From an uncultured bacterium (GTDB lineage: Bacteria; Desulfobacterota; Binatia; HRBIN30; CADEER01): a stretch of DNA of 64,000 bases. This document shows positions 27,473-27,708 of this stretch, one piece after another; position 1 is the first letter of the stretch, and each line of letters starts with the position of its first letter. Position numbers and translations under genes: made by a program. The stretch covers positions 295,825 through 359,824 of the forward strand of contig CAVWTK010000003.1 of the NCBI GenBank assembly GCA_963757755.1. The letters are read 5' to 3'. Under the pieces are notes generated by a model. It searched no databases and was not told the origin of the DNA. It saw only the letters and a list, made by a program, of their open reading frames with translations.

Positions 27473-27551
27473 CCCGTGCGCCGGTGACCGGGGACCCGTG
27501 GGCAGTGCGCGCGCCGCGCGGCCGATCACGCCACCGGTCACTGGTCACCGG
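27469..27551. repeat. GGTSAYC-type (GGTGACC/GGTCACC) REP-like cluster, target of MITE copy 1
   Basis: gtgacccgtgcgccggtgaccgggga..ccaccggtcactggtcaccgg. The bcp TGA stop lies inside the first GTGACC unit. Confidence 0.55.
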
Positions 27552-27682
27552 GCCTTGCCCACCAATTCGGCTGGTCGATCGATCCCGCGCCTGGACGGTC
27601 GCGCTTCCGCGCGACCGGCCGCGCGGAAGCGCGGCCCTCCAATCGGGAACGGAACGTGCTCAGGGAATTGGTGGGCAAAGCC
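27552..27682 (+). mobile_element. 131-bp MITE copy 1 (16-17-bp TIRs, internal 17-bp GC hairpin) with 10-bp target-site duplication
   Basis: The TIRs are GCCTTGCCCACCAATT and AATTGGTGGGCAAAGCC. The perfect direct repeat TGGTCACCGG flanks the element at 27542-27551 and 27683-27692. It differs at 4 of 131 positions from the copy at 59308-59438. Confidence 0.85.
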
Positions 27683-27708
27683 TGGTCACCGGTCACGGTT
27701 CCTGGTTT

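What the first reader, a model, noticed from the sequence alone, without database searches (positions are those of the whole stretch)
27542..27692. 131-bp MITE with perfect 10-bp target-site duplications, present twice, inserted into GGTSAYC-type REP sequences
Seen in sequence: the cores at 27552-27682 and 59308-59438 differ at only 4 of 131 positions. Each has 16-17-bp terminal inverted repeats (GCCTTGCCCACCAATT and AATTGGTGGGCAAAGCC) and an internal 13-17-bp GC hairpin (GCGCTTCCGCGCG accggc CGCGCGGAAGCGC). Each copy is flanked by its own perfect 10-bp direct repeat: TGGTCACCGG at 27542-27551 and 27683-27692, and CGGTGATCGG at 59298-59307 and 59439-59448. Different duplications at the two sites are the classic footprint of transposition rather than segmental duplication. 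Both insertions are in the same orientation, just 3' of a plus-strand gene, inside GGTGACC/GGTCACC repeat clusters. That suggests REP-targeted insertion. No transposase with matching ends is in the window.
Basis: seen in the sequence. Interest (0 to 1): 0.6.

Follow-up and report, generated by a model that had tools for sequence, protein, structure and literature searches.

The report
IS5-type MITE carrying a REPIN core
The two repeats are real copies of a small, recently active "jumping" DNA element (about 36 full copies in this uncultured soil bacterium) that lacks its own transposase and carries a second kind of mobile repeat in its middle; this is an ordinary kind of element with some unusual details.

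Summary
The element is 132 bp, not 131: it starts one G earlier, at 27551 and 59307. The target-site duplication (TSD) is 9 bp, not 10.

- **Copy number.** The assembly (7.2 Mb, probably Candidatus Binatia) holds 36 full-length copies. Of these, 21 have perfect 9-bp flanking repeats and 29 have at most one mismatch, and the repeats differ from site to site. Six copies equal the consensus, which points to a recent burst.
- **Structure.** The ends are 17-18-bp terminal inverted repeats (TIRs), GGCYTTGCCCRCCAATTC. The "internal hairpin" is an inverted doublet (a REPIN) of the genome's own REP family. That family has 179 copies elsewhere and flanks a RAYT gene.
- **Transposase.** No matching transposase is in this assembly. 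Relatives and metagenomes hold 2.6-4.3-kb elements with the same GGCTTTGC termini and perfect 9-bp duplications. They encode a SWIM + DDE transposase that is IS5-family, IS903-like.
- **Target choice.** Insertion into GGTGA/TCACC-type sequences is enriched at least 12-fold (8 of 36 sites) but is not exclusive. The "REPs" it lands in are hairpins with tandem-heptamer arms, not true REPs.

Verdict: a genuine MITE, a new family of a known kind, of moderate interest.

The parts
27542..27550 (+). Left 9-bp target-site duplication of copy 1 (TGGTCACCG)
   Evidence: Read directly. The 9-bp register was established on 36 copies.
27551..27682 (+). MITE copy 1, 132 bp, 3 substitutions from the family consensus
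   Evidence: Folds into one long hairpin: RNA -90.2 kcal/mol, z -7.9.
27551..27568 (+). Left TIR of copy 1 (GGCCTTGCCCACCAATTC)
   Evidence: Matches the reverse complement of the right end at 17 of 18 positions. GGC-TTG is invariant across the MITE, the SWIM-DDE element ends and ISRhba5.
27591..27642 (+). REPIN core of copy 1. Two inverted REP hairpins: CTGGACGG-TCGCGC-TTCC-GCGCGA-CCGG-CCGCGC-GGAA-GCGCGG-CCCTCCAA
   Evidence: Same architecture as the REP doublets that flank the RAYT gene at G000:C9:2465454-2466328.
27665..27682 (+). Right TIR of copy 1 (GAATTGGTGGGCAAAGCC)
27683..27691 (+). Right 9-bp target-site duplication of copy 1 (TGGTCACCG)
27466..27698 (+). Host hairpin with GGTGACC/GGTCACC heptamer arms. 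It starts at the stop codon of the upstream gene, and copy 1 sits in its 3' arm.
   Evidence: The reconstructed empty site folds weakly (-32.9 kcal/mol, z -1.9). The whole block is absent from the orthologous spacer of the same-genus genome G001.
59298..59306 (+). Left 9-bp target-site duplication of copy 2 (CGGTGATCG)
59307..59438 (+). MITE copy 2, 132 bp, 3 substitutions from the consensus. TIRs at 59307-59324 and 59421-59438; REPIN core at 59347-59398.
59439..59447 (+). Right 9-bp target-site duplication of copy 2 (CGGTGATCG)
59290..59507 (+). Host hairpin with heptamer arms (GGCGTGACCGGTGATCGGTC ... GACCGGTCACCGGTCACGCC). Copy 2 sits in its 5' arm.
   Evidence: With the MITE and one duplication removed, the site folds into a 20-pair stem (-30 kcal/mol, z -4.7). 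G007 has a heptamer-arm hairpin at the orthologous site.

Best explanation
**What it is.** This is a non-autonomous DNA transposon (a MITE) of 132 bp. Its 17-18-bp terminal inverted repeats (GGCYTTGCCCRCCAATTC) are the binding and cleavage sites for a DDE transposase supplied in trans.

**The transposase.** The likely enzyme is a roughly 405-417-aa protein with an N-terminal SWIM zinc finger and a DDE_Tnp_1 catalytic domain. It belongs to the IS5 family and is closest to the IS903-group model.

**How it moves.** The enzyme cuts the target with a 9-bp stagger. Repair of the gaps produces the 9-bp direct repeats. It prefers, but does not require, CGGTGA-type sequences. In this genome such sequences occur in hairpins with tandem-heptamer or octamer arms and in the tails of REP elements.

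**The core.** The 52-bp centre is a REPIN, an inverted pair of the genome's own RAYT-associated REP hairpins. It rides along with the MITE and makes the whole element one long hairpin.

**Shown versus inferred.**
- Shown: the copies, TIRs, 9-bp duplications, target bias, REPIN identity, recent amplification, and complete autonomous elements elsewhere with the same termini and duplication length.
- Inferred: that this transposase type mobilised this particular family, and that the element is selfish or neutral rather than functional for the host.
For: - **Census.** There are 36 full copies. 21 have perfect 9-bp duplications and 29 have at most one mismatch, all site-specific. The neighbouring lengths tested in those registers gave no perfect match, apart from one 11-bp duplication.
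- **Age.** Six copies are identical to the consensus and most differ by 3 or fewer positions.
- **Location.** 35 of 36 copies lie in noncoding-like sequence.
- **Distribution.** The full-length MITE is absent from 40 relatives, including the same-genus genome. Both window sites lack it in G001.
- **TIR family.** The TIR 17-mer occurs in 11 of 52 genomes of the order, against 0 for the reversed control pattern. There it bounds MITEs of 171-174 bp with unrelated cores and perfect 9-bp duplications (L155, L156, L167).
- **Autonomous elements.** Three complete elements encode the SWIM + DDE_Tnp_1 transposase, have GGCTTTGC termini and have perfect 9-bp duplications:
  - L240, 2558 bp, TGTTCACCG, inserted in a heptamer array;
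  - L242, 4328 bp, CCCGGCTTG;
  - L243, 3162 bp, GCCTCAACC, from a Candidatus Binatia MAG.
- **End similarity.** The MITE right end matches the L183 left end at 16 of 18 positions.
- **Transposase family.** The best NCBIfam hit is NF033579 (IS5 family) at 136-139 bits. The same model scores 371 bits on the ISRhba5 transposase.
- **Literature.** All seven IS903-group elements captured in Paracoccus made 9-bp duplications (PMC3281130).
Against: - No homologue of this transposase, and no longer element with these ends, is in the assembly. The assembly is rated only 68% complete.
- The transposase scores just under the curated cut-off of NF033579 (140 bits).
- The autonomous elements are 2.6-4.3 kb, against 950-1150 bp for the classical IS903 group (sizes from my memory of ISfinder; about 1050 bp in PMC3281130).
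- Seven other transposase-bearing copies showed a GCAAAGCC right end but no clear left end.
- No precise empty site was found: the closest relative lacks the host hairpins as well.
Confidence: 0.88

Rival explanations
1. It is a REP/BIME-type palindromic repeat, or an extended REPIN, spread by the RAYT tyrosine transposase or by recombination. On this view the flanking direct repeats are just neighbouring units of the GGTSAYC arrays.
For: The centre is a REPIN of the family that flanks a RAYT gene. The two window copies lie in repetitive heptamer arrays, where short direct repeats are common.
Against: Most copies lie in unique sequence, and their 9-bp duplications differ from site to site. The duplication register is fixed at exactly 9 bp next to the TIRs. 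By established knowledge of the IS200/IS605 superfamily, to which RAYTs belong, these enzymes act on hairpins in single-stranded DNA, make no target duplications and need no TIRs. Free REPs in this genome lack the TIRs.
Confidence: 0.03
2. It is a MITE, but derived from a different IS family that also makes 9-bp duplications, such as IS4/IS10/IS50-like, IS1, or the ISAs1-like element in this genome.
For: A 9-bp duplication is not unique to the IS903 group. An ISAs1-like transposase gene exists at G000:C4:821549-822184.
Against: No sequence like the MITE TIRs lies within 1.5 kb of that gene. Three complete elements carrying the IS5-like SWIM-DDE transposase have the same GGCTTTGC termini and 9-bp duplications. 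The end motif GGC-TTG is shared with ISRhba5, an IS5-family element.
Confidence: 0.05
3. The copies have been taken over by the host as structured RNA elements in 3' untranslated or intercistronic regions (transcript stabilisers, attenuators or protein-binding sites). Selection for that function, rather than neutrality, would then explain where they are kept.
For: The hairpin is very stable (-90 kcal/mol, z -7.9). 35 of 36 copies lie in noncoding-like sequence, and where the rough gene calls resolve the neighbours they lie between tandem or convergent genes, never divergent ones.
Against: - There is no U-tract and no terminator-like or promoter-like motif.
- There is no Rfam match.
- There is no orientation bias (18:12).
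- The family is absent from the same-genus genome.
- The copies are near-identical, which indicates recent spread rather than long retention.
Confidence: 0.1

Closest known systems
MITEs derived from IS5-family elements, in particular the IS903 group (IS903; ISPam1 and ISPpa8 of Paracoccus; ISRhba5)
   Same: - The duplication is 9 bp (PMC3281130 Table 2).
- The termini begin GGC-TTG (ISRhba5 ends read, aligned).
- The transposase of the autonomous relatives has a DDE_Tnp_1 domain and hits the same NCBIfam model, NF033579.
- The anatomy is typical of a MITE: small, TIR-bounded, non-coding, intergenic and multicopy (review PMC10969869).
   Different: - The related autonomous elements have an extra N-terminal SWIM zinc finger and about 25-28% identity to named IS903-like transposases.
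- They score just under the model's cut-off.
- They are 2.6-4.3 kb with passenger ORFs, not about 1.05 kb.
- The MITE core comes from the genome's REP family, not from the parent IS.
REPINs and their RAYT transposases (Bertels and Rainey 2011, PMC3116915; Nunvar et al. 2010, PMC2817692)
   Same: The 52-bp core is an inverted pair of REP hairpins. It has the same layout as the doublets that flank a RAYT gene in this genome (NF047646, 90 bits against a cut-off of 80).
   Different: The element as a whole has TIRs and 9-bp duplications, the signature of a DDE transposase and not of a Y1/HUH enzyme. About a third of the genome's REP copies (83 of 262) sit inside MITE copies.
IS elements that insert into REP sequences (IS1397, ISKpn1, IS621, ISPpu9, ISNm1106; Tobes and Pareja 2006, PMC1525189)
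   Same: There is a preference for intergenic palindromic repeats as targets. REP-targeting has been reported for five IS families, including IS5.
   Different: Here it is a bias of at least 12-fold, not site specificity. The preferred sequence (CGGTGA) lies mainly in heptamer or octamer arrays and in REP tails, not in the REP stem.
Composite MITEs that carry another repeat, such as BrickBuilt of Porphyromonas gingivalis with its internal minisatellite (PMC4596501), and the nested BOX, RUP and SPRITE elements of pneumococcus (PMC10969869)
   Same: An unrelated repeat is embedded in a MITE and amplified with it.
   Different: Here the cargo is itself a non-autonomous mobile element of a different transposition class.

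Membership tests
Prokaryotic MITE | Small size with no room for a transposase gene | tested here: met
   132 bp
Prokaryotic MITE | Terminal inverted repeats | tested here: met
   The ends are 18 bp and match at 16-17 of 18 positions
Prokaryotic MITE | Target-site duplications of fixed length that differ between copies | tested here: met
   9 bp. 21 of 36 perfect, 29 of 36 with at most one mismatch. Neighbouring lengths in the tested registers gave none, apart from one 11-bp case
Prokaryotic MITE | Multiple dispersed, near-identical copies | tested here: met
   36 full and about 10 truncated copies on six contigs; six equal the consensus
Prokaryotic MITE | An autonomous element with matching ends exists | tested here: inconclusive
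   None in this assembly. Complete elements with the same 8-10-bp termini and 9-bp duplications occur in a Binatia MAG and in metagenome contigs, but none shares the MITE's subterminal sequence.
Prokaryotic MITE | Presence/absence polymorphism with a precise empty site | tested here: inconclusive
   The same-genus genome G001 lacks the MITE at both loci but also lacks the host hairpins. Only reconstructed and paralogous empty sites were seen. Read data were unavailable.
IS5 family, IS903 group (as the parent) | 9-bp target duplication | tested here: met
   for the MITE; for the autonomous elements; PMC3281130 for the group
IS5 family, IS903 group (as the parent) | Ends beginning GGC | tested here: met
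   GGC-TTG is invariant in the alignment with the ISRhba5 ends. That this is the group's rule rests on my memory of ISfinder.
IS5 family, IS903 group (as the parent) | Transposase passes the family's curated model | tested here: inconclusive
   NF033579 is the best hit at 135.9 and 139.3 bits, just under the cut-off of 140. ISRhba5 scores 371.
IS5 family, IS903 group (as the parent) | Single-ORF element of about 950-1150 bp | tested here: not met
   The complete elements are 2558, 3162 and 4328 bp and carry extra ORFs
REP / BIME / REPIN (whole element) | No TIRs and no target duplication; mobilised by a RAYT | tested here: not met
   TIRs and 9-bp duplications are present
REPIN (the 52-bp core only) | Two inverted REP hairpins of a family that flanks a RAYT gene | tested here: met
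REP-specific IS (IS1397 or IS621 type) | Insertion confined to one position in a repeat | tested here: not met
   Only 8 of 36 duplications hold the GGTGA/TCACC motif, and 25 of 36 sites have no such motif within 12 bp of the duplication

The most novel reading that the evidence does not exclude
The element is a dual-mobility chimera. Its TIRs make it a substrate for a DDE transposase, and its REPIN core remains a substrate for the genome's RAYT. On this reading a DDE transposon has amplified about a third of the genome's REP population. The two REPIN-less derivatives (79 and 83 bp) would be products of RAYT-mediated excision, not of slippage at the 3-nt microhomologies seen at their junctions. 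A further point: the SWIM + DDE elements (2.6-4.3 kb, 9-bp duplication, heptamer-array targeting) would be an undescribed subgroup of the IS5 family.
Probability: 0.12. Interest if true: 0.6.

Novelty: new member of a known kind. Interest (0 to 1): 0.36.

Why it matters
**For annotation.** About 40 intergenic hairpins in this genome, and related ones in at least 11 of 52 genomes of the order, can now be labelled as MITEs of one TIR family. A candidate parent element is also named.

**For mobile-DNA biology.** Three details are worth keeping.
- A REPIN has been captured and multiplied by a transposon of another class: 83 of 262 REP copies lie inside MITEs. REPIN populations are usually modelled as evolving only through their RAYT.
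- The parent transposase carries a SWIM zinc finger. I found no paper that describes this for IS5-family enzymes.
- Both the MITE and its autonomous relatives tend to land in hairpins with tandem-heptamer arms. This links two poorly understood repeat classes of these genomes.

None of this changes the basic verdict that the finding is an ordinary MITE.

Tried and rejected
- **Genome-contig scan with the 17-mer TIR.** By my estimate several hundred are expected by chance. Its main use was to show that G005 is a Candidatus Binatia MAG.
- **Metagenome-contig scan with a 20-mer of TIR plus subterminal sequence.** It gave 8 hits. None was the MITE. One (L139) was a solo TIR next to a REP.
- **Pfam searches of the own genome.** PF13737 found nothing. 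PF01609 found only an ISAs1-like gene and one other ORF, neither with matching ends.
- **Pairing relaxed TIR halves up to 4 kb apart.** No autonomous element turned up.
- **Left ends of transposase-bearing copies in the MAGs.** None could be found for seven copies. Homology between copies covers little beyond the ORF.
- **Orthologous empty sites in G001.** The MITE is absent, but so are the host hairpins, so these are not precise empty sites.
- **ORF-based gene calling with strict GC3 rules.** It covered only about 65% of the genome, probably because of indel errors in the assembly. I replaced it with a period-3 score. The tandem, convergent and orientation counts are therefore rough.
- **Motif and RNA-family scans.** Rfam and the promoter/terminator scan found nothing in or at the element.
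- **Rejected readings.** Segmental duplication, a REP/BIME variant, and mobilisation by ISAs1.

Full report
**1. The observation**

A script confirms that the 131-bp cores at 27552-27682 and 59308-59438 differ at four positions (25, 45, 104, 116). The ends are inverted repeats, and there is a central GC hairpin. The flanking 10-mers TGGTCACCGG and CGGTGATCGG are each repeated perfectly. The repeat finder reports the pair as family D6, 160 nt at 93%. Rfam has no family here.

**2. Census and the true duplication length**

The window lies in a 7.2-Mb, 70% G+C assembly of 9 contigs. BLAST of the core against it gives 47 loci aligned over at least 90 bp. Of these, 36 have both ends intact.

I scored the flanks of those 36 in every register:
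- If the element is taken to start one base earlier, at the G at 27551, a 9-bp direct repeat is perfect in 21 copies and has at most one mismatch in 29.
That is what a chance G at the next base would give.
- The neighbouring lengths tested in those registers (5-13 bp) gave no perfect match, apart from one 11-bp case.

The 9-mers differ from site to site. The element is therefore 132 bp with a 9-bp target-site duplication. The two window copies look like 10 bp only because the base after the right-hand duplication happens to be G. This is the footprint of cut-and-paste or replicative DDE transposition. It rules out segmental duplication and a fixed composite repeat.

**3. Age and distribution**

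Six copies equal the 132-bp consensus, and most differ from it at 3 or fewer positions. The two window copies each differ at 3.

The full element is absent from 40 related genomes, including the only other genome of the genus (G001). Only its central roughly 35 bp finds matches there. The family therefore expanded recently and within this lineage.

**4. Anatomy**

- Positions 1-18 and 115-132 are the TIRs: GGCCTTGCCCGCCAATTC and, read inward from the right end, GGCTTTGCCCACCAATTC.
- Positions 19-40 and 93-114 are unrelated spacers.
- Positions 41-92 read CTGGAGGG-TCGCGC-TTCC-GCGCGA-CCGG-CCGCGC-GGAA-GCGCGG-CCCTCCAA.

As a single strand the whole element folds into one hairpin: RNA -90.2 kcal/mol with z -7.9, and DNA -51.7 with z -6.9. 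It has no U-tract and no promoter-like or terminator-like motif.

**5. The core is a REPIN**

Partial BLAST hits pile up on positions 55-100. They belong to a separate repeat, GGCCGCGCGG[G/A]AGCGCGGCCCTCCA followed by [A/T]TCGG.

Allowing 3 or fewer mismatches to the 25-mer, the genome has 262 copies. 83 lie inside MITE copies and 179 lie elsewhere, and 16 of the latter form inward-facing doublets. The same repeat occurs in G001, G005 and G007, which lack the MITE.

At G000:C9:2465454-2466328 such doublets flank an ORF on both sides. The ORF has an HUH motif (DHVHLF) and passes NCBIfam NF047646, REP-associated tyrosine transposase, at 90.1 bits against a cut-off of 80. The 'internal hairpin' is thus an inverted REP pair of the genome's RAYT-associated family. 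The REP family predates the MITE and was captured by it.

Two short derivatives lack the REPIN: 79 bp at C9:580179-580257 and 83 bp at C9:1819713-1819795. Their junctions fall at 3-nt microhomologies (GGA and GGG), which suggests deletion across the hairpin.

**6. Where it lands**

35 of 36 copies lie in sequence without codon periodicity. Eight of the 36 duplications contain GGTGA or TCACC. The background is 1.9% of all genome 9-mers and 1.5% of noncoding-like 9-mers (p = 3e-7 and 5e-8).

All four extra elements also sit in such sequence. These are the two short derivatives and two copies of a 212-bp sister MITE with the same TIRs.

The motif occurs in two repeat classes:
- hairpins whose arms are tandem heptamers or octamers (GGTGACC, CGGTGAGC), already noted for this genome by earlier agents;
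- the tails of REPs, where 64 of 179 read CCCTCCA-TTCGGTGAY.

Both window copies are in heptamer-arm hairpins that begin at the stop codon of the upstream gene. Removing copy 2 and one duplication restores a 20-pair stem (-30 kcal/mol, z -4.7). The site of copy 1 refolds only weakly (z -1.9).

In G001 both spacers lack the MITE, but they also lack the hairpins. G007 has a heptamer hairpin at the copy-2 site, with a degenerate TIR-like sequence in its loop.

The targets are not REPs in the RAYT sense. The shared orientation of the two window copies is not significant: genome-wide the split is 18 to 12, on rough gene calls.

**7. The parent element**

The assembly has no longer element with these ends. 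Its only PF01609 hits are an ISAs1-like gene and one other ORF, neither with matching ends.

The TIR 17-mer GGCYTTGCCCRSCAATT occurs in 11 of 52 genomes of the same order, while the reversed control pattern occurs in none. Most occurrences bound MITEs of 141-303 bp with unrelated cores. Three of these have perfect 9-bp duplications (L155, L156, L167). Contig titles identify one of these genomes (G005) as Candidatus Binatia.

In those genomes, PF01609 hits include a recurring ORF of about 410 aa with a SWIM zinc finger and a DDE_Tnp_1 domain. In seven copies a terminal ...GCAAAGCC lies 14-36 bp after the stop codon. In L183 a left end GGCTTTGCCCGCCAATCC lies 386 bp upstream. tblastn with nine such proteins finds nothing in the window's genome. 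The family is large: 6,939 proteins at E no greater than 1e-20.

Three complete elements were recovered.

| Locus | Source | Coordinates | Length | Left end | 9-bp duplication |
|---|---|---|---|---|---|
| L240 | JGI metagenome contig, 758,914 bp | 812-3369 | 2558 bp | GGCTTTGCCCACCGAT | TGTTCACCG, inside a heptamer array |
| L242 | 7-Mb contig | 1413-5740 | 4328 bp | GGCTTTGCCT | CCCGGCTTG |
| L243 | Candidatus Binatia MAG | 1433-4594 | 3162 bp | GGCTTTGCACGACAATTC | GCCTCAACC |

In an alignment of all ends, GGC-TTG is invariant, and the MITE ends match the L183 left end at 16 of 18 positions.

The transposases hit NCBIfam NF033579 (IS5 family) best, at 135.9 and 139.3 bits, just under the cut-off of 140. 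The same model scores 371 bits on the ISRhba5 transposase, whose ends read GGGCGTTGTTGCAGAA. The nearest named relatives in plasmid records are ISRhba5, ISAte1, ISSpu20, ISEc35, ISAs4 and ISVa2, at about 23-28% identity.

All seven IS903-group elements captured in Paracoccus were about 1050 bp and made 9-bp duplications (PMC3281130). That GGC ends define the IS903 group is from my memory of ISfinder.

**8. Mechanism and rivals**

- **Best reading (0.88).** This is a MITE mobilised in trans by an IS5-family, IS903-like SWIM-DDE transposase that makes 9-bp staggered target cuts and favours CGGTGA-type sequence. The REPIN core is cargo.
- **RAYT-driven spread of the whole unit.** This is excluded by the TIRs and duplications.
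- **A different parent family with 9-bp duplications.** This is unlikely, given the three complete elements.
- **A host function as a structured RNA.** This cannot be excluded, but nothing supports it beyond stability and position.

The missing transposase is the main gap. The partner may therefore be unassembled, unbinned, plasmid-borne or lost.

**9. Comparison with what is known, and novelty**

MITEs of IS5-family origin, IS insertion into REPs (five families including IS5; PMC1525189), MITEs that embed other repeats (PMC4596501, PMC10969869) and REPIN/RAYT systems (PMC3116915) are all described. This is a new family of a known kind.

Three details are less usual:
- a REPIN amplified by a DDE transposon, with a third of the genome's REP copies lying in MITEs;
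- a SWIM finger on an IS5-type transposase, for which no paper in the library holds both terms;
- a shared taste of the MITE and its autonomous relatives for heptamer-arm hairpins.

Interest is moderate.

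Noticed in passing
G000:C9:2465454-2466328 (outside the window): A classic REP-RAYT arrangement. An ORF of about 140 aa with the HUH motif DHVHLF (NF047646, 90 bits) is flanked on both sides by inverted REP doublets of the family found in the MITE core. PF01797 finds five further Y1-type hits in the genome.
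   Followed up: partly
G000:C1:894353-894564 and G000:C9:912858-913069: A 212-bp sister MITE with the same TIR family (GGCTTTGCCCGSCAATT) but an unrelated, strongly palindromic core. There are two copies in opposite orientation, both inside CGGTGAGC octamer arrays. Their 9-bp duplications are GGCTCACCG (perfect) and CGGTGCGCC/CGGTGAGCC.
   Followed up: partly
G000:C9:1819600-1820100: A tandemly duplicated unit of about 245 bp (REP pair plus target). The first repeat holds an 83-bp REPIN-less MITE and the second a full 132-bp MITE, at equivalent positions. The short one is flanked by a 12-bp repeat (CGGTGATGGCAT) rather than 9 bp. Whether these were independent hits or one duplication followed by a deletion is unresolved.
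   Followed up: no
L220 (G007:C79) 113-131: At the site orthologous to window copy 2, another genus has a heptamer-arm hairpin. Its loop begins with a degenerate TIR-like GCCTTGCCCCGGCAATTC and has no clear right end. This may be an old, independent insertion at the same hot spot.
   Followed up: no
window 27703-27735: Just downstream of copy 1 lies TTGACA followed by the palindrome CAAACACTCGTTTG. It is conserved in G001 and partly in G005. It is probably the promoter and operator of the DUF35/thiolase operon that starts at 27772. The hairpin-plus-MITE block ends within a few bases of the start of this conserved stretch.
   Followed up: no
L240 2451-3272; L242 1480-2038 and 4014-5558: The complete SWIM-DDE elements carry passenger ORFs. 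L240 has a 273-aa protein with no Pfam match. L242 has a small RHH_1 protein and several ORFs without hits. A short conserved stretch about 270 bp upstream of the transposase gene is shared by L179, L183 and L240.
   Followed up: no
L139 300-460 (metagenome contig Ga0068858_100218606): A REP doublet with a long loop ends directly against a solo right TIR (GGAGCGGCGCCCTCCAGCC-GAATTGGCGGGCAAAGCC). REP-next-to-TIR arrangements therefore also occur outside this genome.
   Followed up: no
window 3175-3233, 31113-31199, 32001-32146, 48994-49080, 51979-52145; also 12975-13064, 44391-44473, 50933-51071; and 28795, 45672, 47475, 60903: The window holds several other families of hairpins or arrays built from tandem 8-bp (GTGAGCCG), 10-bp (GTGTCCATCT) and 7-bp (CTCCGTG) units. 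Earlier agents described these classes for this genome.
   Followed up: no
G000:C1:247602-247733: This is the only copy with codon periodicity on both immediate flanks. The reconstructed site reads AGCTTCATGAGGTCGCCGACCATGGCGAG, so the element may sit in a gene or in a very short gap between two divergent start codons.
   Followed up: no
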